A stretch of 64,000 bases of DNA, taken from Ostreococcus lucimarinus (taxonomy: Eukaryota). A model generated the notes under the pieces. The model saw only the letters and a program-made list of their open reading frames with translations. It was not told where the DNA came from and ran no database searches. The stretch is from NCBI GenBank assembly GCA_000092065.1, contig CP000583.1; one strand, given 5' to 3'. Numbering within the stretch: the stretch's first letter is position 1; each line of letters starts with the position of its first letter. Both the position numbers and the translations under genes were made by a program. This document shows positions 1-64,000 of this stretch, piece by piece.

Positions 1-1
1 G

Positions 2-1330
2 GTGTACGCGGCGGCGTTTGAGAATGGCGACGTGAAATTCAGGCACAATTTTGTCGGCACAAAGGGATTCACCGAAGAGCAAGCGGCGCAAAAGATGATT
101 TACAAGGGCGCTTTCGCGATTGGTAACCCCAAGGGTGATTCGCTTTACAACCCTTTCGATTTCGATGTTAAGAACGTGGCTAACACTGGCGTCGTCAACT
201 GGGGCGGCGAGACGTACGCGTTGTGGGAAGGTGGCAAACCGCACAAGATGCGCTCGGAGGATTTGAAGACTGTCGGCGAGGTTGATGAAGTTCTCGGCAC
301 GAAGCTTCGTGTGCCGCAAATGGCCGCGCACTACAGAATTTGGGAAGGTGCAACCGAGGAAGAGAAACGCCTGATCGGCTTTAGCATCGAAAGCCAAGCG
401 TCTTTTCCGCAAAACGTCAACCGCGCCGCGTTTTACGAGTGGGACTCCCAAGGCAAGGCGACGGCTGTGAATAACTTTGACGTCCCGAACGCCACTTTTG
501 GATTCTTTCACGATTGCCTCGTCACGGAGAACTGGTACTTTTTGTTCCAAAATCCCACGAGTTTGAACCCGCAAAAGCTTCTCACCGAGTACATGTTTGC
601 CAAGTGCGCGTTGGCGGAGACGATTTGCATGGTGGATGGAAAGAGCGCAATTTTGCACTGCTTGCCTCGCACGGAGAAGGCGCGTAAGATTGGACAAAAG
701 GCCATCGAGCTCAAACCGCAATTCTTCTTTCACCACATCAACGCATTCGAGCGCGAGAACGGCGACGTCGTCTTGGACTCCTTGCCTTGGGTCTTTATGG
801 ACTTTTCGATGAATCTCGACTCGGTGAATCCGGCGTTTTTCAACGGTGGTTCCAGAGTCGAGTACACGCGATTCGTTGTCAATCCAGTGCGTGAGACGTG
901 CAAGCAGACGGTATTGAACAATCGTGTTGGGGAATTTCCGACGATGAACAACAAGTTTGTTGGTCGTAAATACACGCACGCTTACAGCGCGGGAACCATC
1001 GTCAAGGATGACGTCAAGTGGGGCCCGAATCAGTGCTTGGTGAAACATACCACGGACCCGAACAGCGAGGCGCCGGCGCAAGAGCAAGTTTGGTACTATG
1101 GCGAACGGTGTTTTGTGCAGGAACCGATCTTTGCGCCACGTCCTGGAGCGACAAAGGAAGACGAGGGATGGATTCTGCAAGTCGTGAACGACGCCGGCGC
1201 AGAGACGTCGACGCTCCACATCTTCGACGCGTTGGACATCACGAAGGGACCGGTTGCAAGCGTGCTGTTCGAGGGCGAGCACTTGCCGCCAGGACTCCAC
1301 GGCATGTGGGCGCAAGACGCTGTGTATTAG
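2..1330 (+). CDS. Carotenoid cleavage dioxygenase (RPE65/CCD family), C-terminal ~440 aa. The 5' end is truncated by the window edge.
   Basis: In-frame from the window start. FHHINAFE iron-binding His motif and a C-terminal GLHGMW-type end are typical of carotenoid oxygenases. TGTAA motif 23 nt after the stop. Confidence 0.8.
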   Translation: MYAAAFENGDVKFRHNFVGTKGFTEEQAAQKMIYKGAFAIGNPKGDSLYNPFDFDVKNVANTGVVNWGGETYALWEGGKPHKMRSEDLKTVGEVDEVLGTKLRVPQMAAHYRIWEGATEEEKRLIGFSIESQASFPQNVNRAAFYEWDSQGKATAVNNFDVPNATFGFFHDCLVTENWYFLFQNPTSLNPQKLLTEYMFAKCALAETICMVDGKSAILHCLPRTEKARKIGQKAIELKPQFFFHHINAFERENGDVVLDSLPWVFMDFSMNLDSVNPAFFNGGSRVEYTRFVVNPVRETCKQTVLNNRVGEFPTMNNKFVGRKYTHAYSAGTIVKDDVKWGPNQCLVKHTTDPNSEAPAQEQVWYYGERCFVQEPIFAPRPGATKEDEGWILQVVNDAGAETSTLHIFDALDITKGPVASVLFEGEHLPPGLHGMWAQDAVY

Positions 1331-1432
1331 GATTTAGCAGTACACCAAGGAGTGTAATTTATTAAAAGATCAATTGTGCGTAATTAATGGATACATGGCG
1401 GCGAGCGAGCGAGCGACAGAGAACGTGTTAAT

Positions 1433-2509
1433 TCAACATTCATCAAACCGTTCGGTCGACGGTTTGGGCACCGCTGGCGGCGGTAAAAGACTGTGATTTA
1501 CGTCTGGTCCGAGTTGCAGAGCGCGACTCCAGCATTCTTCGGGTAAAATCATCGTGCACATGTCGTCCGTGCACCCGCTCAAGCCTTCTTTCGACTCTTG
1601 CGCGAGGACGTAACACTCCTTGGTGTGCATCGACGCCTCGATTGAAATTGAATCCCGTCTTTCCAAAATGATCGGCTGCGAGTTCGACGGGTTCGCGATA
1701 CGTTCGTACTCTGCCACGGTCCAATGAAACCAGCGCATGAGAAACAAGCGCAAGGTCAAACCGTGAGTGCACAAAATCATATTCGCGTCTTCTGGAAATC
1801 GGCCTGCGTCGATGTCGCGCACCATGTGGTCTGAAAACATCGTGATTCTATCGTACACATCCGCACCGCTTTCTCCGTTCGGAAAGCGATAGAAGAACCG
1901 TCCGAACCGATGTCTTTCGAGTTTTTCGGCCTGCTTGCGTTCGTAATCTTGGAAGTTCCCAAAATCTTGCTCGCGCAACTGCGGCTCTTCTCGAACGCCC
2001 AAAATCTGTCTTCCCGAGAAGGCTTTGGCGATGCCGATGGCCGTCTCCTTCGACCGACGATACGGTGAGATGTAAAAGAACAGTTTATAATCATCCCCAT
2101 CCGCGTCCATCATATCTCGAAGCTCTCGCCCCGTGCTTTCCGCCTGTTCGTGTCCTCGCGCCGTCAACCGCACTTGCGAATCCGGCGTCCGCGTGTACTC
2201 GCTCTCGTCCACGTTCCCCTCGGACTCACCGTGCCGCACGAGCACGATCCTCCGCGGGAGTTTTCTCGTCGTGCTCCCGTACGCGTACGTCGGTTCACCG
2301 ACCAAGAAATGCTCCGGGCCCGCCCCTCGCACCGCGCTCGCCGCGCGGTTTTCGTCCCGCGCGGCGTCGCGCGCGAACGCCGCATCGCTCGTTCGCGGAT
2401 CCACCGCGTCCCGCCGCGTCGTCGTCGTCGACCGCCGTCTCGGCGTCGCGCGCGCGCGACGTCCGCGCGTCGTCGTCGTCGACGCCGAGATCGCGCGCGC
2501 GCGCGCCAT
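1433..2509 (-). CDS. Histidine phosphatase, phosphoglycerate-mutase-like, with an Arg/Thr/Ser-rich N-terminal extension (possible presequence).
   Basis: LVRHGESEGN (RHG catalytic motif) and a C-terminal CTHG motif. ATG at 2507-2509 on the minus strand. Confidence 0.65.
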   Translation of the reverse strand: MARARAISASTTTTRGRRARATPRRRSTTTTRRDAVDPRTSDAAFARDAARDENRAASAVRGAGPEHFLVGEPTYAYGSTTRKLPRRIVLVRHGESEGNVDESEYTRTPDSQVRLTARGHEQAESTGRELRDMMDADGDDYKLFFYISPYRRSKETAIGIAKAFSGRQILGVREEPQLREQDFGNFQDYERKQAEKLERHRFGRFFYRFPNGESGADVYDRITMFSDHMVRDIDAGRFPEDANMILCTHGLTLRLFLMRWFHWTVAEYERIANPSNSQPIILERRDSISIEASMHTKECYVLAQESKEGLSGCTDDMCTMILPEECWSRALQLGPDVNHSLLPPPAVPKPSTERFDEC

Positions 2510-2700
2510 CGTCCACTGCGGCGTCGCGCCGCGCGGCGACGCGTCGGGACGCGCGTCTCACACACGGATCACACGGGATCGTCGCGCCGGATCGCGACGC
2601 GATCGCGCCGTTCGCGACGCGCTCGACGCGCGCGCGCGGTAAAGCGCGACGCGAACCTCGCGCGGAGACTTCCTGCGCCGCTCGGACGCGCTCGACGACG

Positions 2701-3039
2701 ATGCGGACGATCGCGCGCGTCGCGGGCGTCGCGAACGCGCGCCGAGTCGCGACGCCACGTCAGCGCGCGCGACGCGCGGCGTCGACGGTCGCGACGCGCG
2801 CGAAGGAGGCGAACGCGGCGTCGGAGACGGTGGACGACGTCGCGCTGGGCATGGAGCCGTGTCTCGTGGGATGGGCGGATAAGGACGCGAACGGGGCGGA
2901 CGTGTACTGCTGCGAACAACCGGGGGGCGAAGTCGCGTGCCAAGTCGCGGACACGACGGAGAAGGTGGAGTGCGCGATCATCGAGGACGAGGAGACGGGA
3001 GAGATGACGGTGGATTGCTCGAAGATCGAGAGGGCGTGA
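2701..3039 (+). CDS. Small (112 aa) protein: basic Ala/Arg-rich presequence followed by an acidic 6-Cys domain. Unknown family.
   Basis: Internal ATG of the 2065..3039 ORF. The last ~65 codons have near-saturated GC3 and non-repetitive acidic/Cys composition (CLVGW...YCCEQPGGEVACQ...VECAIIEDEETGEMTVDCSKIERA). The upstream part of the long ORF is Arg-rich CG-repeat and would overlap the start of the PGM-like gene. Confidence 0.45.
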   Translation: MRTIARVAGVANARRVATPRQRARRAASTVATRAKEANAASETVDDVALGMEPCLVGWADKDANGADVYCCEQPGGEVACQVADTTEKVECAIIEDEETGEMTVDCSKIERA

Positions 3040-3185: not shown

Positions 3186-4350
3186 TCAATGCTTCGCCGC
3201 GGCCGCCCGCTGCTTCTTCTCGTCCGCTTTCTTAATGTCGCGCCTGATTTGACCGATGACGAGCGGACGCAAGACGAAGGCTTGAAACAAGAACAGGGGG
3301 AGAATCCAAATCTTGTGCTTGTTGTTCGGGTCGAGCTTCTTGCCAGCCTTGCCGTGGTCGTACTCGTAGCCATCCTTCGAGCACGCCATTTCTACCATCG
3401 TGCTCACCATGTCCGATAACCAAGGTCGATCGTTGACAACCTTCTCTCCGTTGCCGTTCGTCTTGCATCGAGATCCGTTTTCGATGAGCGCGAACGGAAG
3501 CGCCAAGTTGGGCATGTTCAGCGTCGACCGAATCGCCTTGCGGTATTGCTCCACGCGAGCGTTGACGAATTCTTCGTACGGTCTACCGTCCGTCGGCGTG
3601 GTTTGAGCGTGCGAGAACCCGAGCACTGTGCGTTCCCAAAGTTCCGCCCCAAAGTTTTCAGCCAACGAAGTGAAAATCGCCTTGTCCGCGTTGTCCACTC
3701 TCCACGTGTCCAAACGGTCAGTGAACACGAACGCATCCACCTTGCGCCCGTTCAGCGCCGCGCGAAGCGCCATGAGTCCTCGCGCGCTGACGGAATCACC
3801 CTCGAGCAACCCCGGAGTGTCTAAAACGTTCAGCGTGAATCCCGCCGCGACGCGTCCCGCGAGCAACGGTCGCACGTTCTCCGGTTGAAACGGCGAGCTC
3901 GGCGCCACTCGCTCGTTCAACAGCGTGTTCACCGTCGACGATTTCCCTACGCCTTGTTTCCCGATGAAAATCACCGTCATCTCGTTCACGTTACGCTCCC
4001 GGAGCTTACCGAGCGTCTCCAACAGCGCGCTCTGCGTCGCCGCCGGCATCGAGCTCAGCCCGACCCATTCCTTCGGTCCGAGCACCGGCGCCGCCGCCTG
4101 CGCCGGCTGTCCTTCGCCGCCCTCCTCGGTTCCTTCCACGCCTGCGTCACCATCGCGCGTCGCGCGCCCGTTCGTCAGTCACCGCGCGCGTCGAGAGCGC
4201 GCCGATCGACGACGCGCGCAGAGAACCCTAAAGCGGCGCGCACGCCATTCATCGCGTCGCGCGTCGCGTCGAACCGCGATCGCGCCCGCGCGCACCTTCG
4301 CCTTCGCTCGAGACGTAATCTTCGTCTTCGCTGTACTCTTCCTCGCTCAT
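3186..4350 (-). CDS. TOC34: Toc34-type GTPase of the plastid outer envelope translocon (AIG1-type G domain, C-terminal TM). Two exons: join(4296..4350, 3186..4141) on the minus strand.
   Basis: IGKQGVGKSSTVN P-loop, and an EWVG...PAATQ N-terminal motif as in plant Toc33/34. The track ORF starts at GTG. Upstream ATG at 4350 encodes MSEEEYSEDEDYVSSEGEG, followed by a GTGCGC donor, a gactgac branch and a cag acceptor at 4142-4144, in frame with EWVG. Confidence 0.7.
4142..4295 (-). other. Intron (154 nt) of the Toc34 gene.
   Basis: Minus-strand donor G|GTGCGC at 4295, branch-like gactgac about 20 nt from the 3' end, acceptor cag at 4142-4144. Confidence 0.5.
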
Positions 4351-4521
4351 CGTGGCTCGCGCGCGCGCGGGAAAGTGCGGGCGAGGCGCCTCGTTCGACC
4401 GTCCCGAGGTCGGGACGCCGCGCGCGCGACGAACGCGCTCGTTCACAACGCTAATTCTACGACGACGCGTCGCGCGCTCGCGCCCGCGCGCGCTTCTGGC
4501 GTCATCCGAGTTTCGAGGCGT

Positions 4522-4884
4522 TCATCCCTCGCGCCACTGCCTCGCGCACTTGACGCACTTGTAAAACACCGACATCGGCTCGTCCGCGCTCCTGATTTGT
4601 ATCTGCATAAAGTACGCCTCGTCGTGCGCGCACCCCGGGCACGTCGCCGACGTCTTATCCACGTTTCGCCACGCGTCGTCGCCGCCCAAGACGTCGTCCA
4701 CGGTCTTCTTTCGCGCGTCCACGCGCTGTTTCACGCCGTCGACGACGTCGTACGCGTACGGGCACGACGCGCAGCGCAGCCGGACGGCGCCGCCGACGCC
4801 CGCGCCGGCGCCGGACGTCGACGCGTCCGCGGCGCCGCGCTCGAGGAGCAACAGATTCGCGCACGTCGGGCAAAAGGTGAGCAT
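4522..4884 (-). CDS. RPC10: RNA polymerase III subunit C11 (RPC10). N-terminal zinc ribbon plus a C-terminal TFIIS-type zinc ribbon.
   Basis: MLTFCPTCANLL start at a true ATG (4884). C-terminal CPGC...QIRSADEP...CVKC carries the catalytic acidic DE loop of C11/A12.2-type subunits. 120 aa. Confidence 0.7.
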   Translation of the reverse strand: MLTFCPTCANLLLLERGAADASTSGAGAGVGGAVRLRCASCPYAYDVVDGVKQRVDARKKTVDDVLGGDDAWRNVDKTSATCPGCAHDEAYFMQIQIRSADEPMSVFYKCVKCARQWREG

Positions 4885-5121
4885 GGCGCGCGACGACGCC
4901 GGCGCCGCGCGACGACGCGCGACGACGCGCGATGCGAGGCGAAGAGTGACGCGCGGCGGTCGAGCGGCAGTGCTCGCCTCGCGACCGCGCGCGCGACGCG
5001 CGACGCGCGCGACGCGCTCGACGCGCGTTCGAGCGCGTCGACGCGCGCGCGTCGACGCGCGACGCGACGCGGGCGCGACGCGCGCGCGCGGTGAATTCGC
5101 ATTCGGTTGGAACGCGGGACG

Positions 5122-8100
5122 ATGCGCGGCGCGCCGCCGTCGCCGTCGTGGTACGGCGCGCACGCGGCGTGCGCGACGCGCGATGGTGGTTTAGTCTACG
5201 CGTCGGATAAGGCGGTGTGCGTGCTGGACGGGGAGACGGGCGCGGTGCGAGGACTCGTGGGGACGAAGGCGCGGGCGCTCGCGGTGTGCGCGGCGACGAC
5301 GAGCGAGACGCGGGAGGGCGAGGACGACGAGGGAGGAGGCGCGCGCGAGGTCGTCGTGTGCGGGTGCGCGGATAAGGTTTTGAGGACGCTCGACGCGCGC
5401 GCGATGGCGTTCGTGGGGAAGACGATGACGGGAGGACATAAACACGAGGTGACGGCGACGTGCGCGCGGGGCGCGGGCGAAGTCGCGAGCGGATGTCGAG
5501 ACGGGACGGTGGCGGTCTGGCGCGTGCTGGGGAACGGATCGCCGACGTGCGCGTACAAAGCGATCGATGGACCGATCACGTGCATGGCCGCGGTTGGGGA
5601 CGTGATCGCGGTGGGAGGGGCGAATGGGACGGTGTGCGCGCTCAACGCGAGGAGCGGCGCGACGCATCGCGTGGCGGCGAGCGGATACGGGGAGATCACG
5701 TCGCTCGCGTGGACGACGGGTGGCGTGGGAGAGGGAGAGACGAAGGATCTTTTAGCTGTGGGTAGTCGAGAGAGACGAGTGACGATATGGGCCTTGGAGG
5801 GTGACAAGCTCGTGAACACGCACGAGTTGAGATTGCCGAAACCAAAGGCGGCGCTGAGCGAAGCGCAACGCGGTCGCGTGTGGGTCGCCGTCGCGTGGTC
5901 GCCGCGCGCGAGCGGTGATGACAAAGGTGACAATGAGTGCGTGGAATTAGTTACGTCTGGACAAGGTGGGGATTTGCTTTCGTGGCGCGTACCTTTGAAA
6001 TTCGGCGACGGCGTGGAAGAAGTGACGGAGGCGAAAACGTTTGGGCCGAGAGACGTCGCGCACACTCGAACGGTGTTCACCATCGATATTGCCGACGACA
6101 CGTGTTGGAGTACGAGTTTAGATAGGAAAGTAGCGTGTTGGGACTTGGAGACGGTCGAGCAGCGGTGGTCGTTCACCGCACTAGGTGGATACGTGTACGA
6201 TTTAGCGACGGACGCCGAAGATCCATTCGCGGTGGCCATCGCGTGCGGCGATGGAACCGTGCACGGGTGGGATCTGTCTCCCACGCTGTCCAGTGGGTTA
6301 GGAGAGTCACTTCTTTGGAAAGGGATTCCAAACACAAAAGTCACAGCTATCGCGCGGAAGCCGCGAAGCGAAGTCGTAGCGTTCGGCCTCGACGACGGAC
6401 GCGTCGGATGCTTTGACGTGACAACCGGAAAGTTTGCGTGCTACCCCGAGTGTCACGGTGCATCGGTACGCGCACTGCAGTGGTTTGAAATATGCAACGT
6501 CGGTGAAGAGTCTGGCACGTTCACGCTCACGAGTTTGGGTGCGGATGGGTCGTTGTGGCGGTGGATGGAAACATTTGACCCGGCGTCGTGCGACACGAAA
6601 AAATCTGGCATAGTCGACGCGCGGAAATTCGGCAAGTACCTCGACTTGGCACGCCTGTGCGGTGGAGAAACCGCGAAGGATACTCGAAGCATCGAAGCAT
6701 TCGACTATTCAAGTGTTTTCGGGCGATTTGCGATCGGCTGGTCAGACGGTGAATTGAGCGCGCATGATTTTGGTGAAGAAAAGTGGCGCCGGCGAGAACA
6801 CAGTAAGAGCGTTTCTCGCGTGAAATGGCATCCTGAATGCGACGACGATGCGAGCGACTTCACCGCTTGGCTCGCCACTTCTTCAACGAGTGGAAGTGTC
6901 ATCATACATGGTGTAGGTGGTGATGTTATTTGCGCGCTTCCACGTGCCGCGGTCTACGACATTGCGTGGTCGCAACAAAAGAGCGTCGCGCTTTTGGCGT
7001 GCGCTCTCCACGGCGCCATCAAAGTTTGGCGCATCGATAAGACTGTGAATGAATTTCATCCGGTGAATATCGCGGTACTGCGTGGTCATTTTGGCAAGGT
7101 GATGTGTGTACAGTTTGCGACGCACGATGACGAGACGATCATCAGCGGGGGCGACGATAAAACTTTCCGAGTGTGGCGTTACAAGGATGACGAGCACGCG
7201 CCGCGCGAAAACGAAACGCCGGCGAATAAGGACTCAGCCGCGGTGGTCGATGAAAACGCAGCGTGCGAGTCGCCTACAAAGTCGTCGAAGACACAAAAAC
7301 CGTGTGTGGTGAAGACGAAAAAGGTTAGATCGAGCGGTCTCAGTGGGGCGTTGCTCAAGCCGTCGCACGAGGAAAGCACGCCAACAGGAATACGCGCGAG
7401 CCAGGAAGCCGTCGTCGCTCTTGCTCGTCGCGCGTACAAAGGCGCCAACGATCCGTTGAGCGCAAACGAATTGAAGTATGGACCGAGTGGCTTGGGTTTG
7501 TATGAAGACGCCGACGCGGCGATGGCGCTGCTGATGAACGAGGCCAGGCTCGCATCGGATGAAAATCCGTCGACGCACGAACTCGAGCGCGCGGTGGCGC
7601 TGCACATGTATCGAGGCGATTACGCACACGCCGCGGCGACAGTCTTGCAAGCGAGCGAGGCGCCAATTTCACACGAGCTCATGTCGCTCTTTGTCGGCGG
7701 TGGATACGACGTGTGGTCCATCGTAGCTGCCGCGCAACGCGAGCGATTAGAAATCGCGGGCGAGCATCAGCTCGCGGCGATGGTATCGCTGTCCTTGCAC
7801 GACGTGCGAGGCGCGATTCAGACACTCAGACGTGGCGGTTTGGTTCGAGATGCCGCCGCACTCGCCGCCGCCAGACTCTTACCGACGGACGAACTATTAC
7901 TCGATACGAGACGAGAGCTCGCCGCCGTGGAAGAAACGCGCGGAGGGATGGAGTCCGCCGCCAAGGCGCACATCTCCATCCGCGCTCCCGCCGCCGCAGT
8001 TCGCGCGCTCATTCGCGCCGACGCCGGCGGCGCGCTCGCCGCCGCCAATCTCGCCCTCGAGTGTGGTTTAACCGGTCCACAGGAACGTCGAACCATCGTT

Positions 8101-8295
8101 CGAGCCGCCCTCGAGCTCGCCGAGACCGACGATTTCGATCGCGCCGTCGCGATGCTCGCCGACCTCGCCGCGATTCTCCGGCGCCGAGATTCCGACGTCG
8201 CCGTGACCGACGCCATCACCGCCGCCACCGCGCCCGATTCTCGCGTCGCCGTCGAGCTCACGCGGCGCCTTCGCGCCCTCGAGCTCGACGCGTAG
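5122..8295 (+). CDS. WD40-repeat protein, Gemin5-like: multi-blade N-terminal WD40 region plus an Ala-rich helical C-terminal region.
   Basis: N-terminus PPSPSWYGAH resembles the Gemin5 N-terminus (PPSPNWYCAR). Repeated WD signatures (GDGTVHGWD, DGTVAVWRV, DDKTFRVW). ATG at 5122; the track ORF starts at TTG. Confidence 0.55.
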   Translation: MRGAPPSPSWYGAHAACATRDGGLVYASDKAVCVLDGETGAVRGLVGTKARALAVCAATTSETREGEDDEGGGAREVVVCGCADKVLRTLDARAMAFVGKTMTGGHKHEVTATCARGAGEVASGCRDGTVAVWRVLGNGSPTCAYKAIDGPITCMAAVGDVIAVGGANGTVCALNARSGATHRVAASGYGEITSLAWTTGGVGEGETKDLLAVGSRERRVTIWALEGDKLVNTHELRLPKPKAALSEAQRGRVWVAVAWSPRASGDDKGDNECVELVTSGQGGDLLSWRVPLKFGDGVEEVTEAKTFGPRDVAHTRTVFTIDIADDTCWSTSLDRKVACWDLETVEQRWSFTALGGYVYDLATDAEDPFAVAIACGDGTVHGWDLSPTLSSGLGESLLWKGIPNTKVTAIARKPRSEVVAFGLDDGRVGCFDVTTGKFACYPECHGASVRALQWFEICNVGEESGTFTLTSLGADGSLWRWMETFDPASCDTKKSGIVDARKFGKYLDLARLCGGETAKDTRSIEAFDYSSVFGRFAIGWSDGELSAHDFGEEKWRRREHSKSVSRVKWHPECDDDASDFTAWLATSSTSGSVIIHGVGGDVICALPRAAVYDIAWSQQKSVALLACALHGAIKVWRIDKTVNEFHPVNIAVLRGHFGKVMCVQFATHDDETIISGGDDKTFRVWRYKDDEHAPRENETPANKDSAAVVDENAACESPTKSSKTQKPCVVKTKKVRSSGLSGALLKPSHEESTPTGIRASQEAVVALARRAYKGANDPLSANELKYGPSGLGLYEDADAAMALLMNEARLASDENPSTHELERAVALHMYRGDYAHAAATVLQASEAPISHELMSLFVGGGYDVWSIVAAAQRERLEIAGEHQLAAMVSLSLHDVRGAIQTLRRGGLVRDAAALAAARLLPTDELLLDTRRELAAVEETRGGMESAAKAHISIRAPAAAVRALIRADAGGALAAANLALECGLTGPQERRTIVRAALELAETDDFDRAVAMLADLAAILRRRDSDVAVTDAITAATAPDSRVAVELTRRLRALELDA

Positions 8296-8506
8296 TTCTC
8301 GCGTCGCCGACGCGACGCGACGCGTGTAGCAGCCCAAACCAACCGTCCCCAGTAACCGTCAATCCTCCGCCGCGTCACATCGAGCCGCGCGCCTCGCCGA
8401 CGCCGACGCGCGCGCGACGCCGAAGCGCGCGCGAAGCGCGACGACGCGCGCGAGGCGACGCGCGACGTCGCGCGACGCCGACGTCGGCCCGGCGGCGGCG
8501 CCGCAG

Positions 8507-40104: not shown

Positions 40105-40151
40105 CGCGGGAGAAAAGAATCGAAATCGTGAACGATCGCGAGCGTCGTCGC

Positions 40152-49023: not shown

Positions 49024-49096
49024 CGTCGTCGATGCGTCGCGTCGACGTCTGAGGCGATTCGCCGCGTCGCGACAGACGTCGACGCGCGCGCGCGTC

Positions 49097-51775: not shown

Positions 51776-51813
51776 CTTTATAGATTATAATTACAACGCT
51801 TAGACTAGTAGTA

Positions 51814-57756: not shown

Positions 57757-58749
57757 CTATTCTCCCACGGTCATCCCGAATCCGAACTTGTGGTTTTTGT
57801 TGAAGTGATCGACCTCGGCGGAGAGGATGAGGTTCAACCCGACGTTGAGGCGCTCCTCGAGGTAGGTGGAGACGACGCCGTGGTTGTCAATGCGGCCGCG
57901 AATTCTGCACTGGCGCAAGATGTAATCGTATCCCACGCTCGCTTGTGCGCTACGTTGGTTCCAGTTCCACAAGAAATCGCTCGCCAGCATCGCCTTCTCG
58001 CTAACTTTGGTGCAATACGTGAGCGACAACAGCCCAGTCGTGGCGATTTGCCCGGTGGCGACGGTTTTGTCATCCGCGTATCTCGCCGCGAACCCGACCC
58101 CGGACTTGCCCTGAGTACCCAAATAGAAACCTTCCCCACCCAAGGACAGCGTCGGCGTGACGCTCTGCAAGTAGTTCACCCCGTAAAACTTTCCGCTCCC
58201 GTACTTCAACTGCGCCTGGTAATCCAAACCCTTGAAGTCGGCGTCAAACATCACTTGCGAAAACCCCGGCTCCTTGGTCGATTGCAACTTAAGCGACAAC
58301 CAATCGCTCAAGTCATACTTCACCCTACCACTCACTCTACCATCCGTCAGAATTCTCCCCACGAGCATGTAATCCTGATCGACCACGTTTGCCCCAAACT
58401 CGTACGTCGACGTCGGCAGCTTGACAATCTGCCCTTGCGCCGGCACCTCCACGTTCCCGAGAAAGAACCCGTGGCTCAAGAAGAACTTCTGATTCAGCTG
58501 TTTGTTATAATCAAACCTCGCGCCCTCGAACAGATCCGCCTTCAGCGACATCATCACCTCTCTTTGCATCTCCTCGTACTTCACCGGGCAGGGCAAATCG
58601 CCGTAGTCGACGCGTCCCGTGCGCGGTCCATCGCCGGTTTTCGCCGCGTTCGCCGCCGCTTCCGCCGCGGCGTCGTCGGCGGCGTCGTCGGCGTTCGTCA
58701 TCGGCGGCATCACCGCCGCGGATTCCATGCGCGACGTCGTCAGCCCCAT
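57757..58749 (-). CDS. TOM40: Mitochondrial outer-membrane import channel TOM40 (eukaryotic porin family).
   Basis: YLQSVTPTLSLGGE and C-terminal FGFGMTVGE match the TOM40 beta-barrel signature. ATG at 58747-58749. Confidence 0.8.
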   Translation of the reverse strand: MGLTTSRMESAAVMPPMTNADDAADDAAAEAAANAAKTGDGPRTGRVDYGDLPCPVKYEEMQREVMMSLKADLFEGARFDYNKQLNQKFFLSHGFFLGNVEVPAQGQIVKLPTSTYEFGANVVDQDYMLVGRILTDGRVSGRVKYDLSDWLSLKLQSTKEPGFSQVMFDADFKGLDYQAQLKYGSGKFYGVNYLQSVTPTLSLGGEGFYLGTQGKSGVGFAARYADDKTVATGQIATTGLLSLTYCTKVSEKAMLASDFLWNWNQRSAQASVGYDYILRQCRIRGRIDNHGVVSTYLEERLNVGLNLILSAEVDHFNKNHKFGFGMTVGE

Positions 58750-58992
58750 GATCGCGCCGCGTACTGCCGCCGCGATCGATCGACGCGATCGTCCGCGCGG
58801 ACGCGTCGGTCGCGCGCGCGCGCGCCGAAGCTCGCGCCGTCGTTCGATCGTCGACGACGAACCTCGAGACGAGGGTCGACGCGATCGCGATTCGAATGAT
58901 GGTCCGTGTGATGCTTCGATCGACGTGAGACGTCGTGCAGTCGCGCCCGGTCGCGCGATCCGTCTCTTCGACGCGCGCGTGAACCCAGAGCC

Positions 58993-59938
58993 ATGGCGCG
59001 ACGACCGGCGAAATGCTATCGCGTGATTAAGAACAAACCGTACCCGAAGTCTCGTTACTGCCGGGGCGTGCCGGGTGCGTGCGGTGACGCGACGACGCGC
59101 GCGGAACGAGCGATCGAATAACCCTAAAACGAACGCGCGACTGACGACGAACGCGCGACGCGTGCGATGATGCGCAGATCCTAAGATTCGCATTTACGAT
59201 GCGGGGATGAAGAAGTATTCGTGCGACGCGTTCCCGGCGTGCGTGCACCTCGTGAGGTACGTATCGAGCGATGACGCGCGCGTGATGATGGGCGCGAGAG
59301 ACCTAAACCGTGCGCGGAGCGCAGGGACGGTGATGCGCGTGGGGGGACGCGCGCGACGCGTGCGATGGGTGACGGAGGATGAGGACTGACGAGACGTTAT
59401 TTTTACATCGACGCGCAGTTTCGAAAAGGAGCAAATCGGCTCTGAGGCGATGGAGGCGGGACGTATCGCGGCGAACAAGTACATGGTGACCAAGGCTGGG
59501 AAGGAAGGTTTCCACCTTCGCGTGCGCTTGCACCCGTTCCACGTGTTGCGCATCAACAAGATGTTGTCGTGCGCGGGTGCGGATCGCTTGCAAACGGGTA
59601 TGCGTGGTGCGTACGGTAAGCCGCAAGGTGTCGCCGCGCGAGTGTCCATTGGTCAAATCATGTTGTCGATTCGAACCAAGGATGTGCACGCGGACAAGGC
59701 TGTCGAGGCGTTCCGTCGTGCCAAGCACAAGTTCCCGGGCCGCCAAAAGATTGTCAAGTCTAAGCAGTGGGGTTTCACGAAGTACTCCCGCGATGACTAC
59801 ATGAAGTGGAAGGATCAAGGCCGCATTGAGCCGGATGGTGTCAACGCGAAGATCGTCCAACACCACGGTCCGCTCGCGGCCAAGCCGGCGAGCCAACTCT
59901 TCCTCAACGCGGCTCGCAGGTACAAGGTTGCCCTTTAA
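58993..59938 (+). CDS. RPL10: 60S ribosomal protein L10 (uL16, QM). Three exons: join(58993..59074, 59178..59256, 59419..59938).
   Basis: Exon 1 [27 protein letters not shown]; exon 2 [27 protein letters not shown]; exon 3 [22 protein letters not shown]...[31 protein letters not shown]. Donors GTGCGT and GTACGT. Acceptors gcgcag and cgcgcag. Confidence 0.85.
59075..59177 (+). other. RPL10 intron 1 (103 nt).
   Basis: G|GTGCGT donor, ctgac branch, gatgcgcag acceptor. Confidence 0.6.
59257..59418 (+). other. RPL10 intron 2 (162 nt).
   Basis: AG|GTACGT donor, ggactgac branch about 30 nt upstream of the cgcgcag acceptor. Confidence 0.6.
59275..59395 (+). ncRNA. Candidate intronic box C/D snoRNA within RPL10 intron 2.
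   Basis: C-box-like TGATGA at 59283-59288 (preceded by ATGA), an internal GTGATG C'-like box near 59328, and a D-box CTGA at 59386-59389 close to the intron 3' end. The spacing is about 100 nt. The CTGA also overlaps the putative branch point. Confidence 0.2.
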
Positions 59939-61677: not shown

Positions 61678-62868
61678 CTAAGGTTTGTTTTGCCGACGCT
61701 GCGCGGTGCGCATTTCGGCCCATTTAGGTGCTTTAGGGGCTTGTTTCATTTTTGTCGTCTCCGAATGACGCTTGAAATCGCCCTTTGGGGCGTTCGCGGG
61801 CGCTTCCATGTTTGGCGCCGTTTTGTACATTTCCAAGAGCTTGCGCTTGACGTCGTCGTCTCTCACACCGACGTTGCTCATCTTTTTTGAACTGTTCCAT
61901 CGCGCTGCGATGGCCATCTCTTGGAGTATTTCTTTTTCTCCCTGACTCGCCTTACGAAGCTCCTCCACGAAGGCTTTGGCGGTGACGACGTACGCCCCCG
62001 TCCCTCTCGCGATCGAGCTCAACGCGTTATCCGAAGTCGCCACGTACACCACTCGATTGGACTTTTTATCGGCTCCAATCTCTTGCGCGACGCGCGCCTC
62101 TATCCACGAGTCCGCGTCGTTCTTCACGCTGTACACCGTCATGAATCCATCGACGTCGAGATCACCCTCGATCTCGTCCTCGTCTTTATCCCGGTTTCGA
62201 TCGGCGTCCCACACCAACGCCACGGCGTACCCGCTAAAGCTCTTAAAATCCATCACCTCCTTCGTCAGCGCGACTCGCGCCGCGTCCATGTCCCCTCGTC
62301 TAAACGCCGCATTCGCCTCCTCGACCCCATCCGCGCCCTCTAATCCGCACACGTTATACCCATCCACGAGCAACAACGGCGGCTCCCCGCCGCCGCTAAA
62401 TCGTTCCAGCTCGCTTCGCAGTCGCGCCTCGCGTTTCTTCTCCGCCCTTCGTCGCGCCAGCTCCGCCTCGTACGTTCGATCCCGCGTTCCATCCGCGCCT
62501 TTTCGTCTCCCTCCCTCGATCGGTTTCGCGCTCGTCCCGCTCGTCCCTCGCCCCGCGTTTGCCCTCGCGTTCGCGTTCGATCCGTCGCCGCCGCTCAGCG
62601 ACTTGAACCGCTCCACGAGCTTGATTTGCGTCGCGACGCTCATCCCGTTCGTCCGCTTCGTGATCCTCGGCGGCGGCGTCGACGACGCGTCCCTCGCGCC
62701 TCGATCGTCGCCCTCGCGTCGCTTGCCCTTGCTCGCGCGCGCCGCGACGTCGCCGCGTCGTCGCCGCGTCGACCTCGACGTCGACGTCCCGCTCGTCGTC
62801 ATCGCGCGCGCGACGCCCGCGCGCGACGCGCGCGACGCGCTCGACGGCGCGAAGACGTCGAGCGACAT
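61678..62868 (-). CDS. YacP-like NYN (PIN-like) domain protein with an Arg-rich N-terminal region.
   Basis: PLLLVDGYNVCG...VALVWDAD...VVYVATSDNAL is typical of NYN/YacP ribonuclease-like domains. ATG about 62868 (MSLDVF). Confidence 0.55.
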   Translation of the reverse strand: MSLDVFAPSSASRASRAGVARAMTTSGTSTSRSTRRRRGDVAARASKGKRREGDDRGARDASSTPPPRITKRTNGMSVATQIKLVERFKSLSGGDGSNANARANAGRGTSGTSAKPIEGGRRKGADGTRDRTYEAELARRRAEKKREARLRSELERFSGGGEPPLLLVDGYNVCGLEGADGVEEANAAFRRGDMDAARVALTKEVMDFKSFSGYAVALVWDADRNRDKDEDEIEGDLDVDGFMTVYSVKNDADSWIEARVAQEIGADKKSNRVVYVATSDNALSSIARGTGAYVVTAKAFVEELRKASQGEKEILQEMAIAARWNSSKKMSNVGVRDDDVKRKLLEMYKTAPNMEAPANAPKGDFKRHSETTKMKQAPKAPKWAEMRTAQRRQNKP

Positions 62869-62955
62869 CTCGCGCGTCGCTCGACGGCGCGTCGGCGCGC
62901 GGTCGCGCGAGCGAGGGCGCGAACGTCTGGCGCCGGCCGCACACGCGCGCGCGTC

Positions 62956-64000
62956 ATGACGACGCCGACGGCGACGACGACGACGGCGGCGACGCGCGCG
63001 AGCGCGAGCGCGAGGTCGAGCGACGCGCCGAGTTTGACGTTCGCCGCGATCGCGCGGAGCCTGATCGCGGGCGGCGTCGCGGGGGGAGTGTGCGTGCGAG
63101 CGATCGCGAGGCGGCTCGACGGCGGCTCGACGGGACGCATCTTGCTCGAAGACGCCGCGCGCGACGCGCGCGAGCGCGCGCGCGGCGTCCGCGAGGACGG
63201 TGAACGGCGCGACTGACGCGCGCGCGATCGCGAACGCAGGTCTCGAACGGCGGTGGCGCCGTTGGAGCGGTTGAAGATTTTGCAACAGGTGCGCGAGAGA
63301 CGCGAGACGCGAGACGACGACGACGACGAGGGATTTTCGACGCGACGCGACGCGCGAGCGCGACGAGGGACTGACGGTGCGCGCGCGCGCGCGATGAATC
63401 GTAGGTTTCGTCGAGTTCGGCGTATAATGGGGTGTATTCGGGGCTGTCGCACATGTGGAAGACGGAGGGCGTGAAAGGTTTGTTCAAAGGAAACGGCGCG
63501 AACTGCGTGAGAATCGTGCCGAATAGCGCGGTGAAGTTCTTTTGTTACGAACACATGGCCCACGGGTTGTTGGATTTGAGGCGAACGTTCGATAAAGACG
63601 CGGAGATGGATGTGTTGACGCGCTTGGGGGGGGGCGCCGGGGCGGGCATCGTCGCCATGTCGGCGACGTACCCTCTGGATATGATTCGAGGGCGATTGAC
63701 GGTGCAAAAGTCTGCGGCGGACGCCGCGAAGAGTGGGGGGGCAAATTATCGAGGTATTTATCACGCGTTTACGGTTATCGCGCAAAAGGAGGGTTTCGGG
63801 GCGTTCTACAAGGGATGGACGCCATCCGTCATCGGCGTAATCCCGTACGTGGGCTTAAACTTTGCCATTTACGAGACGCTCAAGGACCAGACGGTGAAGA
63901 TGCAAGGGTTGCGATCAGCGTCTGATTTGAGCGTTTTCGCGGGATTAGTCTGTGGGGGTGTCGCGGGTGCGGTCGGTCAAACCGTGGCCTATCCTTTCGA
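62956..64000 (+). CDS. Mitochondrial carrier family protein (SLC25). The 5' part has three exons so far: join(62956..63089, 63240..63288, 63405..>64000). It continues beyond the window.
   Basis: Exon 1 ends ...SLIAGGVAGG. Exon 2 (V)SRTAVAPLERLKILQQ. Exon 3 VSSSSAYNGVYSGLSHMWKTEGVKGLFKGNGANCVRIVPNSAVKF...GIYHAFTVIAQKEGFGAFYKGW. Carrier repeats are visible. Confidence 0.8.
63090..63239 (+). other. Mitochondrial-carrier intron 1 (150 nt).
   Basis: GT|GTGCGT donor in phase 2, gactgac branch, gaacgcag acceptor. Confidence 0.55.
63289..63404 (+). other. Mitochondrial-carrier intron 2 (116 nt).
   Basis: CAG|GTGCGC donor, ggactgac branch, aatcgtag acceptor. Confidence 0.5.

What the first reader, a model, noticed from the sequence alone, without database searches (positions are those of the whole stretch)
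1..64000. Inverted GC landscape: extremely CpG-rich (CGCG)n spacers and gene 5' ends versus moderate-GC coding cores
Intergenic spacers, 5' regions and the N-terminal extensions of many genes are 70-80% GC and dominated by CGCG/GCGCGA repeats. Examples are 2400-3000, 4140-5120, 8300-8500, 17560-18100, 22620-22890, 24540-24860, 29760-30060, 31790-32650, 40780-41000, 44650-45300 and 62400-63400. Conserved domain cores are 48-58% GC. This is the reverse of the usual eukaryotic pattern. It generates long stop-free ORFs on both strands, including many Arg/Ala/Pro-rich 100-430-aa phantom ORFs in the track. Possible explanations are unmethylated CpG-island-like promoters in a genome with gene-body CG methylation, GC-biased gene conversion at recombination/TSS hotspots, or nucleosome-positioning sequence. 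It also explains why so many proteins here appear to carry Arg/Ala-rich N-termini.
Basis: seen in the sequence. Interest (0 to 1): 0.5.

Follow-up and report, generated by a model that had tools for sequence, protein, structure and literature searches.

The report
CpG-rich GC peaks at gene starts
In this compact green-alga (Ostreococcus-like) genome every gene start lies in a 0.5-1 kb zone of about 70-80% GC, extremely CpG-rich DNA covering the promoter and the first 150-250 codons, while gene bodies are about 54% GC and 3' spacers 26-49%; this is a real, lineage-specific variant of CpG-island / 5'-to-3' GC-gradient biology, not a new genetic element.

Summary
GC is 0.70 and CpG density 0.226/bp around 29 start codons, against 0.59 and 0.142 for random anchors (z = 7-8). 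All eleven cited intervals are 69-80% GC with CpG o/e 1.8-2.1.

Four corrections apply:
- Only promoter-bearing spacers are GC-rich. Convergent 3'-3' spacers are the most AT-rich DNA in the window (26-49% GC).
- CpG is in excess everywhere (o/e 1.63 overall, about 1.5 in gene cores).
- Several "spacers" contain small real genes.
- The blocks are degenerate low-complexity sequence, not transposons.

The gradient is mainly CpG-specific. NCG codons make up 87% of NCN four-fold codons at 5' ends and 51% in cores, while NCC falls. GC3 in contexts that cannot form CpG rises only from 0.57 to 0.68.

Sister species keep the GC landscape (rho = 0.88) while the sequence turns over. Unlinked loci of the same lineage reproduce the pattern; other Mamiellales-like lineages do not.

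Polarised substitutions show CpG creation exceeding CpG loss, no CpG hypermutability, and about half as much CpG loss at 5' ends.

Best reading: CpG-island-like promoter-proximal domains maintained by a CpG-favouring fixation bias. Genome-wide CpG enrichment in prasinophytes is already published. Interest is moderate.

The parts
2201..2900 (.). GC/CpG peak (74% GC, CpG o/e 1.89): 5' CDS of the histidine-phosphatase gene (ATG 2509, minus strand) plus upstream non-coding DNA
4001..5700 (.). GC/CpG peak (71-73% GC). Contains the AIG1-GTPase 5' end (ATG 4049, -), a small TFIIS-zinc-ribbon gene in ORF 4522-5163 (-), a degenerate (CG)n/CGCGCGACG array at 4887-5090, and the Gemin5-like 5' CDS (ATG 5122, +)
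7901..8700 (.). GC/CpG peak (72.5% GC): GC-rich 3' tail of the Gemin5-like gene, a 211-bp tandem spacer (77% GC), and the PSME4 5' CDS (ATG 8507, +)
17201..18200 (.). GC/CpG peak (73.7% GC) at the divergent pair ERG24 (ATG 17658, -) / unknown 792-aa gene (ATG 17565, +)
22501..23100 (.). GC/CpG peak (68-69% GC; the 263-bp spacer has CpG o/e 2.04) at the divergent pair Topo III (ATG 22624, -) / RabGAP (ATG 22888, +)
24201..24900 (.). GC/CpG peak (71.7% GC): RabGAP 3' tail plus a 325-bp tandem spacer with (GCGAC)n/(CGCGCGACG)n, upstream of the unknown 763-aa gene (ATG 24863, +)
26901..27500 (.). Weaker GC peak (67-70% GC in parts; the 236-bp tandem spacer is 58% GC) upstream of NSUN5 (ATG 27391, +)
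29501..30600 (.). GC/CpG peak (73% GC) at the divergent pair DUF2214 (ATG 29977, -) / DUF1749 (ATG 30055, +). The 77-bp spacer between them is 88% GC and contains a (CG)n run
31301..32700 (.). Largest GC/CpG block (75% GC): FHA gene 5' CDS (ATG 31789, -) plus about 1.1 kb with no clear frame signal. It probably holds one or two short low-complexity genes (minus-strand ATG about 32323; plus-strand frame signal 32491-32850). Unresolved
34301..34600 (.). GC peak (71% GC) at the 5' CDS of the SET/Rubisco-LSMT-like gene (ATG 34541, -)
39601..41300 (.). GC/CpG peak (69-73% GC): QRPTase 5' CDS (ATG 40104, -), saposin-like gene 40152-40862 (-), divergent core at about 40863-40967 with (CG)n, and the NIF/FCP1 phosphatase 5' CDS (ATG 40884 or 40968, +)
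44701..45600 (.). GC/CpG peak (73.8% GC): conserved unknown 203-aa gene 44572-45183 (-), divergent core with a degenerate (CG)46 array at 45109-45207, and the ARPC2 5' CDS (ATG 45303, +)
48901..49200 (.). GC peak (69% GC) at the divergent pair HAT1 (ATG 49023 or 49098, -) / XPB (ATG 49097, +)
55001..55700 (.). GC/CpG peak (72.4% GC) at the divergent pair unknown 1036-aa gene (ATG 54924, -) / bromodomain gene (ATG 55172, +), with a (CG)n array at 55237-55279
58601..59000 (.). GC peak (70.8% GC, CpG o/e 1.98) upstream of the Porin_3 gene (57757-58749, -), on the side facing the RPL10 gene
62401..63400 (.). GC/CpG peak (72.9% GC, CpG o/e 1.91): NYN-domain gene 5' CDS (ATG 62868, -) and the divergent promoter towards a plus-strand gene
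51776..51813 (.). Contrast feature: a convergent 3'-3' spacer at 26% GC. The other convergent spacers are 1331-1432 (41%), 19944-20071 (45%), 28987-29083 (49%), 30937-30997 (38%) and 46296-46362 (42%)

Best explanation
These are CpG-island-like promoter-proximal domains of a compact, intron-poor, Ostreococcus-like (Mamiellales) nuclear genome. Each gene start, from roughly -300 to +700 of the ATG, lies in DNA driven to 70-80% GC and CpG o/e about 1.9. The cause is a fixation bias that favours creating and keeping CpG dinucleotides and disfavours CC/GG. The bias acts across the whole genome (cores have CpG o/e about 1.5) and is about twice as effective in the TSS-proximal zone.

Published methylomes show that this zone is the region where 5mC is replaced by 6mA in the first nucleosomes. 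Because the force acts on DNA regardless of coding status, it has three side effects. It fills the untranslated promoter/5'UTR with degenerate (CG)n and CGCGACG-type tracts. It pushes 5' codons to NCG/CGN and so makes N-termini Arg/Ala-rich and poorly conserved. It removes stop codons in all six frames, which produces the phantom ORFs.

Shown here: the location, the CpG specificity, the direction of substitutions, conservation of composition without conservation of sequence, and lineage specificity.

Inferred: the cause of the bias. My split within this explanation is roughly even between two options. One is selection for high CpG density in the 5mC-free promoter-proximal chromatin, serving nucleosome organisation or initiation at very short bidirectional promoters. 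The other is CpG-context-biased mismatch repair or gene conversion concentrated in open promoter chromatin.
For: - Location: GC 0.72 and CpG o/e 1.9 at the ATG, decaying to 0.54 and about 1.55; z=7-8 against random anchors. Promoter-bearing spacers are 54-88% GC, convergent spacers 26-49%.
- Acts on non-coding and coding DNA alike: there is no codon-phase signal upstream of the first ATG (all phases 0.66-0.73 GC). Immediately after it, GC3/GC2/GC1 are 0.83/0.62/0.65, falling to 0.60/0.44-0.50/0.53-0.55 by about +1000.
- CpG specificity: GCG 0.82 against GCC 0.12 at 5' ends, 0.46 against 0.25 in cores. The C3 fraction at two-fold sites rises only before G (0.67 to 0.83) and is flat before A, C and T. 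NCG is 0.87 against 0.51, while GC3 at sites that cannot form CpG is only 0.68 against 0.57. Upstream DNA has CpG 1.93, CC 0.43, GG 0.36 and CA/TG about 0.6.
- Step-like boundary: NCG per 300 nt is 0.87, 0.85, 0.72, 0.50, 0.48, 0.55.
- Fixation direction on the three-lineage star tree: in cores NCA>NCG is 0.252 against NCG>NCA 0.069 (p=6e-9). A>G is 4x higher in the CpG-creating context than elsewhere (p=9e-5). CpG loss is lower at 5' ends (44/348 against 109/477, p=2e-4), including the transversion G>T (p=0.01). There is no excess C>T or G>A at CpG sites in cores.
- Composition is conserved but sequence is not: GC per 200-nt bin has Spearman 0.88 between window and sister. Identity is 0.615 against 0.726, gaps 8.7% against 3.2%, and the 3-periodicity of substitutions is lost in the peaks. 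N-terminal protein identity is 0.58 against 0.76.
- Generality: unlinked loci of the same lineage show the same profile.
- Literature: mutational equilibrium GC is 37-44% in two Ostreococcus species, against 56-59% observed, so a non-mutational force is needed (PMC5455958). [quoted passage not shown]
Against: - No methylation, TSS, nucleosome or recombination data for this sequence could be analysed here. The link to the 5mC-free zone rests on published statements about related strains, and anchors are ATGs, not TSSs.
- Substitution counts in the 5' zone are small (10-44 events). They rely on parsimony at highly diverged synonymous sites and on alignments that are poor exactly where GC is highest.
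- In cores, NCG preference could partly reflect translational selection. The C3|G1 context shows only a non-significant CpG-creating excess (0.27 against 0.21).
- Micromonas-like relatives reportedly share the 5mC/6mA arrangement but show no GC gradient. The chromatin domain alone is therefore not sufficient, although GC3 there is already saturated at about 0.87.
- A lineage with similar genome-wide CpG excess (GC 0.51, o/e 1.55) has AT-richer upstream regions.
- Within-species polymorphism was too sparse to test fixation bias directly (41 SNPs).
Confidence: 0.55

Rival explanations
1. Classical GC-biased gene conversion (AT-to-GC fixation bias regardless of context) at stable promoter-proximal recombination hotspots, as proposed for grass genes, birds and dogs, produces the 5' GC peak. 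The CpG richness is then a by-product of high GC.
For: - GC3 at sites that cannot form CpG is higher at 5' ends (0.68 against 0.57, OR 1.6, p=7e-6).
- All three codon positions and the non-coding DNA shift together.
- Composition is conserved while sequence and indels turn over faster.
- Peak height follows lineage GC: strong in the 58% GC sister, weaker in the 55% GC sister.
- Observed GC is far above mutational equilibrium, and the literature reports indirect evidence of gBGC in O. tauri (PMC5455958; PMC5635611 includes Ostreococcus).
Against: - NCC codons fall as GC rises (0.25 to 0.12).
- The C3 fraction is unchanged before A, C or T and rises only before G.
- CC/GG o/e drops to about 0.4 in the peaks.
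- CpG o/e increases with GC, which a context-blind process does not predict (r=0.53).
- At most about a third of the synonymous-site shift is independent of context.
- Recombination could not be measured.
Confidence: 0.2
2. Passive CpG islands: the whole genome once had, or tends towards, high CpG. Gene bodies lose CpG through deamination of linker 5mC, and unmethylated promoter-proximal DNA simply escapes that decay.
For: - CA/TG o/e is about 0.6 upstream and about 1.0 in cores, and NCA is 0.02 against 0.18.
- CpG loss is lower in the 5' zone.
- Published methylomes place 5mC in gene-body linkers and not in the first nucleosomes after the TSS (PMC12695648; PMC12633428 summarising Huff & Zilberman 2014).
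- GC-to-AT mutation bias was found in coding but not in intergenic DNA of Mamiellophyceae (PMC5455958).
Against: - Escape from decay can give CpG o/e of at most about 1, not 1.9, and cannot give 75-80% GC when mutational equilibrium is about 37-44%.
- In cores, C>T at CpG sites is no faster than at non-CpG sites (0.163 against 0.153), G>A likewise (0.069 against 0.077), and CpG creation exceeds CpG loss.
- The 5' reduction in CpG loss also applies to the G>T transversion, which is not a deamination product.
Confidence: 0.12
3. Protein-level selection: the GC-rich 5' coding regions encode functional Arg/Ala-rich N-terminal extensions such as organelle transit peptides or disordered regulatory tails, and the nucleotide composition follows from the amino acids.
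For: N-termini are enriched in Arg (1.9x) and Ala (1.55x). Some genes here are plausibly organellar (AIG1/Toc-like GTPase, DUF2214, QRPTase, Rubisco LSMT-like).
Against: - The untranslated upstream DNA has the same or stronger composition.
- Synonymous sites carry the strongest signal (GC3 0.83; NCG 0.87).
- Nuclear and cytosolic proteins (XPB, ARPC2, bromodomain, Gemin5-like, PSME4) show it too.
- N-termini are poorly conserved and indel-rich, and substitutions lack codon periodicity.
Confidence: 0.03
4. The blocks are repeat-derived: transposon remnants, or satellite/microsatellite expansions by replication slippage that happen to lie between genes.
For: TRF reports many degenerate arrays with periods of 2-55 in the blocks. 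(CG)>=3 runs cover 12.7% of block bases, and CGCGCG is 1.5x a first-order Markov expectation.
Against: - Inter-block similarity is weak (about 70-80% over 40-250 bp), falls in several registers and occurs on both strands, so it is compositional.
- Most k-mer counts are explained by dinucleotide frequencies.
- The blocks sit at orthologous gene starts in three lineages and extend into real coding sequence with intact frames.
- No transposon protein domains were found in the ORFs scanned.
Confidence: 0.05

Closest known systems
Vertebrate CpG-island promoters
   Same: Both are discrete domains of about 0.5-1.5 kb at gene starts, often bidirectional, with higher GC and CpG than the flanks. Both extend into the first coding sequence, and in both position and composition are conserved more than sequence. 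Published data for related algae indicate that 5mC is absent just downstream of the TSS while gene bodies are methylated (PMC12695648).
   Different: Vertebrate islands stand out from a CpG-depleted genome (o/e about 0.2) and reach only about 0.6-1.0, through escape from deamination. Here the background is already 1.5 and the peaks reach 1.9. CC/GG are strongly avoided, CpG shows no hypermutability in fixed substitutions, and CpG creation is favoured. Methylation status was not measured here.
5'-to-3' GC/GC3 gradient of grass (Poaceae) genes, usually attributed to GC-biased gene conversion at 5' recombination hotspots (e.g. PMC2895627; PMC13473671)
   Same: GC3 declines along the CDS from the start codon (0.83 to 0.60), with parallel shifts at codon positions 1 and 2 and in amino-acid content. 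High-GC3 regions are CpG-rich, and the strength of the gradient is lineage-specific.
   Different: Here every gene in a compact unicellular genome shows it; it is not a bimodal subset of genes. The signal is mostly specific to CpG context and is not a general AT-to-GC shift. It looks like a step at about +600-900 nt.
Genome-wide CpG enrichment with periodic Dnmt5 linker methylation in prasinophytes (Huff & Zilberman 2014, as cited in PMC12695648, PMC9246332 and PMC12633428)
   Same: Same group of organisms and the same unusual property: CpG over-represented despite substantial CpG methylation. The window's o/e of 1.63 and the 1.3-1.7 of most related metagenome loci fit that published statement.
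   Different: The published description that I could read concerns the genome-wide ratio and the methylation pattern. It does not mention a promoter-proximal GC/CpG peak with a gradient into coding sequence, its restriction to Ostreococcus-like lineages, or the codon and amino-acid consequences. The primary paper was not available to me, so I cannot exclude that it shows CpG frequency around TSSs.
GC/CpG peaks at promoter recombination hotspots in PRDM9-lacking vertebrates such as dogs and birds (recalled from memory: Axelsson et al. 2012; Auton et al. 2013; Singhal et al. 2015)
   Same: Stable promoter-associated peaks of GC and CpG that are thought to reinforce themselves: unmethylated CpG-rich DNA attracts recombination, and biased conversion then adds GC. 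Composition is conserved across species.
   Different: No recombination data exist here. Sex is rarely if ever observed in these haploid algae, and the CpG specificity here is stronger than a W-to-S bias predicts.

Membership tests
CpG island (sequence criteria of Gardiner-Garden & Frommer: >=200 bp, GC >=50%, CpG o/e >=0.6) | Length, GC and CpG o/e thresholds | tested here: met
   All 16 blocks are 300-1700 bp, 67-75% GC, with CpG o/e 1.4-2.0. The criterion does not discriminate here, because almost the whole window passes it (5th percentile of CpG o/e 1.17).
CpG island (biological definition) | Unmethylated state in a genome methylated elsewhere | not testable with these tools
   No methylation data for this sequence. 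The literature on O. tauri, O. lucimarinus and M. pusilla reports gene-body linker 5mC, with 6mA replacing 5mC in the first nucleosomes after the TSS (PMC12695648, PMC12633428).
CpG island (biological definition) | Origin by escape from methylation-driven CpG depletion, so that flanks are CpG-poor and CpG is hypermutable | tested here: not met
   Gene cores have CpG o/e about 1.5. C>T at CpG is 0.163 against 0.153 at non-CpG sites, G>A is 0.069 against 0.077, and NCA>NCG (0.252) exceeds NCG>NCA (0.069).
gBGC-driven 5'-3' GC gradient (grass-gene type) | Monotonic decline of GC3 from the start codon | tested here: met
   GC3 goes 0.83, 0.83, 0.74, 0.71, 0.67, 0.69, 0.62, 0.60 per 150 nt. The same holds in sister and unlinked loci.
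gBGC-driven 5'-3' GC gradient (grass-gene type) | AT-to-GC bias independent of dinucleotide context | tested here: inconclusive
   A context-independent component exists (GC3 0.57 to 0.68 at sites that cannot form CpG, p=7e-6). At two-fold Y sites, however, C3 is flat in all non-CpG contexts, and NCC falls.
gBGC-driven 5'-3' GC gradient (grass-gene type) | Association with local recombination rate or hotspots | not testable with these tools
   Only two divergent haplotypes with 41 SNPs were retrievable. No LD map is possible.
Transposon- or satellite-derived repeat blocks | Copies share a common sequence in a consistent register, and/or encode transposon proteins | tested here: not met
   Inter-block BLAST hits are weak, multi-register and on both strands. 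TRF arrays are short and degenerate. No transposon domains were found in the ORFs scanned.
Mamiellales low-GC outlier chromosome region (BOC1/SOC1) | Markedly lower GC than the rest of the genome, enriched in introns and TEs (bioRxiv 10.1101/2025.04.21.649811) | tested here: not met
   The window is 58.8% GC, intron-poor with ORFs tiling it, and has no repeats of TE type. Unlinked loci of the lineage have the same composition (GC 0.59-0.62, CpG o/e 1.55-1.70).
Prasinophyte genome-wide CpG enrichment | CpG o/e above 1 across genes and spacers | tested here: met
   o/e is 1.63 over the window, and 1.40-1.46 at each of the three codon-position pairs in cores. Most related metagenome loci are 1.3-1.7. 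This matches the statement in PMC12695648.

The most novel reading that the evidence does not exclude
The force shaping this genome is specific to the CpG dinucleotide and is not a GC-content force. It would be a fixation bias that creates and retains CpG, through CpG-context-biased repair or conversion, or through selection for CpG density in 5mC-free promoter-proximal nucleosomes. It is strong enough to rewrite the first 150-250 codons of essentially every protein, and it was switched on or relocated to promoters specifically in the Ostreococcus lineage. If so, these algae would offer a tractable system, with homologous recombination, small genomes, existing methylomes and mutation-accumulation lines. 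They could address why prasinophytes are CpG-enriched despite heavy CpG methylation, and they could separate selection on CpG from biased conversion.
Probability: 0.3. Interest if true: 0.6.

Novelty: new variant of a known kind. Interest (0 to 1): 0.4.

Why it matters
- Annotation: in this lineage ORF length is a poor guide. 216 of 249 open frames of >=100 codons are not genes, start codons are ambiguous within stop-free GC-rich DNA, and small real genes hide in apparent spacers. The codon-phase and cross-species periodicity tests used here resolve most cases.
- Protein evolution: a DNA-level bias imposes Arg/Ala-rich, fast-evolving N-termini on housekeeping proteins. This should be taken into account when predicting transit peptides in these algae.
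- Genome evolution: the CpG specificity, the absence of CpG hypermutability and the lineage restriction sharpen the already noted puzzle of CpG enrichment in heavily CpG-methylated prasinophytes. They also turn it into concrete tests using data that already exist.

Tried and rejected
- Transposon or repeat origin: rejected.
- RNA genes in the unassigned stretches: none found (tRNA scan; Rfam).
- Nucleosome-scale CpG periodicity, as Dnmt5 linker methylation might produce: only weak bumps near 160 and 300 bp in the autocorrelation and nothing decisive in the spectrum. Left as inconclusive.
- Within-species polymorphism to test fixation bias: only two divergent haplotypes (L012, L013; 99.7-99.8% identical; 41 SNPs, about 24% in GC-rich DNA) and three identical contigs (L014-L016). 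Underpowered and unpolarised.
- Naming the organism: the exact sequence occurs only in unnamed assemblies (Logan SRR1179203/4, ENA and JGI marine metagenomes), and the run accessions appear in no searchable paper. 'Ostreococcus-like' is inferred from GC, compactness, gene content and identity tiers to relatives, and is not proven.
- Primary source for prasinophyte methylation (Huff & Zilberman 2014, PMC3969382): not held. I relied on how later papers summarise it.
- Frame detector in low-GC cores: my thresholds were too strict there and gave many 'None' calls. I used it only for the GC-rich zones, where held-out controls were correct.
- Coding status of 31.8-32.5 kb: reading the sequence suggests short genes on both strands, but I could not settle frames or starts.
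- Protein-driven explanation for the composition: rejected on the synonymous-site and non-coding evidence.

Full report
WHAT THE WINDOW IS

Long ORFs nearly tile both strands. They encode ordinary eukaryotic housekeeping and plant-lineage proteins: RPE65-type dioxygenase, AIG1/Toc-like GTPase, Gemin5-like WD protein, PSME4, sterol reductase ERG24, topoisomerase III, RabGAP, NSUN5, VPS15, QRPTase, FCP1/NIF phosphatase, HVA22, ARPC2, TECR, HAT1, XPB, a bromodomain protein, a 3'-5' exonuclease, a NYN protein and a Rubisco-LSMT-like SET protein. With about 33 genes in 64 kb, almost no introns and 58.8% GC, this is a compact green-algal nuclear genome.

The XPB protein matches only unnamed marine-metagenome and Logan assemblies exactly or almost exactly. 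Relatives fall into tiers: 88% identity on syntenic contigs, 73-76% on 68% GC contigs, and 69% on a 46% GC contig. I read this as Ostreococcus-like, with Micromonas-like and Bathycoccus-like relatives. This is inferred and not proven. There are no tRNA or Rfam hits.

CHECKING THE OBSERVATION

The composition is extreme across the whole window: CpG o/e 1.63, CC and GG about 0.63-0.64, TA 0.56.

Anchoring on the first in-frame ATG of 26 genes, GC is 0.72 just upstream and 0.71 in the first 100 nt, 0.63 at +300 and 0.54 at +700. CpG o/e falls from 1.9 to about 1.55. Against 5000 sets of random anchors, GC around ATGs has z=7.4 and CpG density z=8.2. The 60 nt after stop codons are significantly AT-rich (0.46, z=-6.5).

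Spacer class matters. Convergent 3'-3' spacers are 26-49% GC, while divergent and tandem spacers are 54-88%. The feature therefore belongs to gene 5' ends and not to intergenic DNA in general.

WHAT LIES INSIDE THE PEAKS

Upstream of the first ATG the three codon phases have equal GC (0.66-0.73), so that DNA is untranslated. From the ATG onwards a strong phase signal appears (GC3 0.83, GC2 0.62, GC1 0.65) and relaxes to 0.60/0.44-0.50/0.53-0.55 by about +1000. The peaks thus span both non-coding promoter/5'UTR and real coding sequence. The first 120 residues are enriched in Arg (1.9x) and Ala (1.55x) and depleted in Gln, Trp, Ile, Asn and Phe.

A codon log-odds frame detector recovers the right strand and frame on held-out genes at 70% GC. 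It leaves cores of about 200-600 bp with no frame signal, centred on divergent or tandem promoters.

Several long 'spacers' hold small real genes:
- a TFIIS-zinc-ribbon protein in ORF 4522-5163(-)
- a saposin-like gene at 40152-40862(-)
- a conserved 203-aa gene at 44572-45183(-)
- a FabA-like gene at 15543-16187(-)
- a porin at 57757-58749(-)

The largest block (31.3-32.7 kb) probably holds one or two short low-complexity genes that I could not resolve.

Phantom ORFs are real and abundant: 249 open frames of >=100 codons and only 33 genes. The rest are Arg/Ala/Ser-rich, and locally shuffled sequence already yields 172+-8.

REPEATS OR COMPOSITION?

The blocks are rich in CGCG, GCGC, GACG, CGAC and GCGA, and TRF finds many short degenerate arrays, including imperfect (CG)n of up to about 47 units. 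A first-order Markov model explains most word counts (CGCG 1039 against 923). Only longer runs show a moderate excess (CGCGCG 411 against 270). Matches between blocks are weak, multi-register and on both strands. This is low-complexity sequence produced by a dinucleotide bias, perhaps with some slippage. It is not a mobile element.

GC OR CpG?

The gradient is mostly a CpG gradient.
- In the first 450 nt, GCG/ACG/CCG take 0.75-0.84 of their codon families and GCC/ACC/CCC only 0.11-0.15. In cores the values are 0.41-0.46 and 0.20-0.25.
- At two-fold C/T sites the C fraction rises only when the next base is G (0.67 to 0.83). It is flat before A (0.68/0.67), C (0.37/0.39) and T (0.49/0.51).
- At four-fold sites that cannot form a CpG, GC3 is 0.68 against 0.57, a real but modest general shift (p=7e-6). 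NCG is 0.87 against 0.51 and NCA 0.02 against 0.18.
- NCG per 300-nt bin runs 0.87, 0.85, 0.72, 0.50, 0.48, 0.55, which looks like a step at about +600-900 nt.
- Untranslated upstream DNA has CpG 1.93, CC 0.43, GG 0.36 and CA/TG about 0.6.

EVOLUTIONARY BEHAVIOUR

A syntenic sister locus (L001) aligns from 39 to 57 kb. GC per 200-nt bin correlates at rho=0.88 between the species. Identity in high-GC bins is 0.615 against 0.726, gaps are 8.7% against 3.2%, and the third-position periodicity of substitutions disappears inside the peaks. N-terminal protein identity across three lineages is 0.58 against 0.76 for the rest of each protein. Composition is maintained while the sequence itself turns over.

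On the three-lineage star tree, which allows parsimony polarisation, the results are as follows:
- In cores NCA>NCG (0.252) far exceeds NCG>NCA (0.069; p=6e-9).
- A>G is four times more frequent in the CpG-creating context than elsewhere (p=9e-5).
- CpG sites show no excess transition loss: C>T is 0.163 against 0.153, and G>A 0.069 against 0.077.
- CpG loss is lower in 5' zones (44/348 against 109/477, p=2e-4). This holds both for G>A (p=0.011) and for the transversion G>T (p=0.010).

Parsimony error under skewed composition would understate, not create, the CpG-creating asymmetry. Counts are small, however, and 5' alignments are imperfect.

GENERALITY AND LINEAGE SPECIFICITY

A metagenome scan with an unrelated housekeeping gene gave 80 unlinked loci. 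Those with the window's signature (GC 0.59-0.62, CpG o/e 1.55-1.70, CC/GG 0.64-0.70) reproduce the profile over 40 genes: upstream 0.64-0.67, first 300 nt 0.68-0.69 with GC3 0.80, decay to 0.57-0.58, and 0.42 after the stop. The window is therefore typical of its lineage, and it lacks the traits of a low-GC outlier region.

Other lineages differ:
- A 55% GC sister has a weaker peak.
- Micromonas-like loci are flat at 0.66-0.71.
- A GC 0.51 lineage with equally high CpG o/e has upstream regions more AT-rich than its genes.
- Bathycoccus-like loci have AT-rich upstream DNA and CpG o/e about 1.1.
(8-40 genes per group)

WHAT IS ALREADY KNOWN

Genome-wide CpG enrichment despite high 5mCG is reported for prasinophytes. 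In Micromonas and Ostreococcus, 5mC occupies gene-body linkers and is replaced by 6mA in the first nucleosomes after the TSS of active genes (PMC12695648; see also PMC12633428, PMC9246332 and bioRxiv 10.1101/2025.04.21.649811).

Mutation-accumulation lines give an equilibrium GC of 37-44% for two Ostreococcus species, against 56-59% observed. They also show a GC-to-AT bias in coding but not in intergenic DNA (PMC5455958).

My searches found no description of a promoter-proximal GC/CpG peak or a 5'-3' gradient in Ostreococcus. The primary methylome paper was not available to me.

INTERPRETATION

The best-supported reading is CpG-island-like promoter-proximal domains maintained by a CpG-favouring fixation bias that is strongest near gene starts (confidence 0.55). 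The underlying cause is unresolved between selection on CpG density in 5mC-free chromatin and CpG-context-biased repair or conversion.

- Plain gBGC (0.20) explains only the minor context-independent component.
- Passive escape from deamination (0.12) cannot produce o/e 1.9 and is contradicted by the absence of CpG hypermutability.
- Protein-level selection (0.03) and repeat origin (0.05) are largely excluded.

VERDICT

It is a variant of known phenomena (CpG islands, 5'-3' GC gradients, prasinophyte CpG enrichment) and not a new kind of element. Its unusual aspects are the CpG specificity, o/e of nearly 2, the consequences for protein N-termini and the restriction to one lineage. Those give it moderate interest and make an existing puzzle directly testable with published data.

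Noticed in passing
window 4522-5163 (-), 40152-40862 (-), 44572-45183 (-), 15543-16187 (-), 57757-58749 (-): Small real genes sit inside or beside GC-rich 'spacers'. They are a TFIIS-type zinc-ribbon protein (RPB9/RPC11-like, domain at ORF residues 174-211), a saposin-like protein, an unknown 203-aa protein conserved in three lineages, a FabA-like protein and a Porin_3 protein. The long plus-strand ORF 57451-58899 opposite the porin gene is a phantom.
   Followed up: partly
window 31790-33023: This is the largest GC-rich stretch (72-80% GC, 1.2 kb between the FHA and SET genes). It has no clear frame signal for about 1.1 kb. Reading it suggests a minus-strand ATG at about 32323 and a plus-strand ATG at about 32344, only about 20 bp apart, which may be two short divergent low-complexity genes. 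No Pfam hits.
   Followed up: partly
window 53906-53971: Haplotype L012 differs from the window at 11 positions within 66 bp inside the unknown 1036-aa gene, against a background of about 0.3% divergence. This could be a clustered multi-nucleotide event or a short gene-conversion tract.
   Followed up: no
window 51768: A T>G SNP in haplotypes L012 and L013 coincides with a 2-residue difference at the XPB C-terminus. The window protein ends ...KKKLA (892 aa), while metagenome variants end ...KKK (890 aa). This appears to be a polymorphic stop codon.
   Followed up: partly
window 17565-17658 and 49023-49098: The first in-frame ATGs of divergent neighbours overlap: ERG24 against the unknown 792-aa gene by 94 nt, and HAT1 against XPB by 2 nt. 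So either true starts lie further in (a gene caller placed the HAT1 start at 49023) or the 5' coding regions really do overlap on opposite strands.
   Followed up: partly
window about 59207-59950 (+): The RPL10 (Ribosomal_L16) gene is called as two pieces (60 aa + 162 aa) on the identical contig L015. This suggests one of the very few introns in the window.
   Followed up: no
window, +150 to +750 of gene starts: G exceeds C on the coding strand (skew +0.17 to +0.28), with G3 0.50 against C3 0.24-0.32, whereas the untranslated upstream DNA has no such skew. NCG and GNN codon usage probably explains it, but it is also the skew polarity associated with R-loop-prone CpG-island promoters.
   Followed up: partly
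window, -300 to +150 of gene starts: ApT o/e is raised (1.24-1.30) around gene starts, against about 1.0 in gene bodies, even though A+T is lowest there. This may be relevant to the published 6mA-at-ApT mark in the first nucleosomes after the TSS.
   Followed up: no
window-wide: There are weak local maxima in the CpG-density autocorrelation at about 160 bp and about 300 bp, and a 1.5x power bump at 150-160 bp. This could reflect nucleosome-linker CpG placement, but it is not significant on 64 kb.
   Followed up: partly
window 7900-8295, 24240-24537, 26850-27154: The 3' ends of three plus-strand genes that lie directly upstream of another gene's promoter (Gemin5-like, RabGAP, unknown 763-aa) are themselves 68-73% GC and lose the frame signal. 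The promoter-proximal GC zone of the downstream gene seems to spill into the C-terminal coding region of the upstream gene.
   Followed up: partly
loci L074, L083, L086 (GC 0.51), L093 (GC 0.455), L075/L081 (GC 0.62): Among picoeukaryote metagenome loci sharing the proteasome gene, CpG o/e is 1.5-1.6 even in 45-51% GC lineages. It is about 1.0 in one 62% GC lineage and about 1.1 in the Bathycoccus-like one. CpG excess is therefore decoupled from GC content and from the 5' GC peak.
   Followed up: partly
window 51814-54987 (-): The unknown 1036/1057-aa protein had no hit in my Pfam scan. Its orthologues on sister contigs carry precomputed hits to PF27230/PF27231 (MJ1566_N / MJ1567), families named after archaeal proteins.
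   Followed up: no
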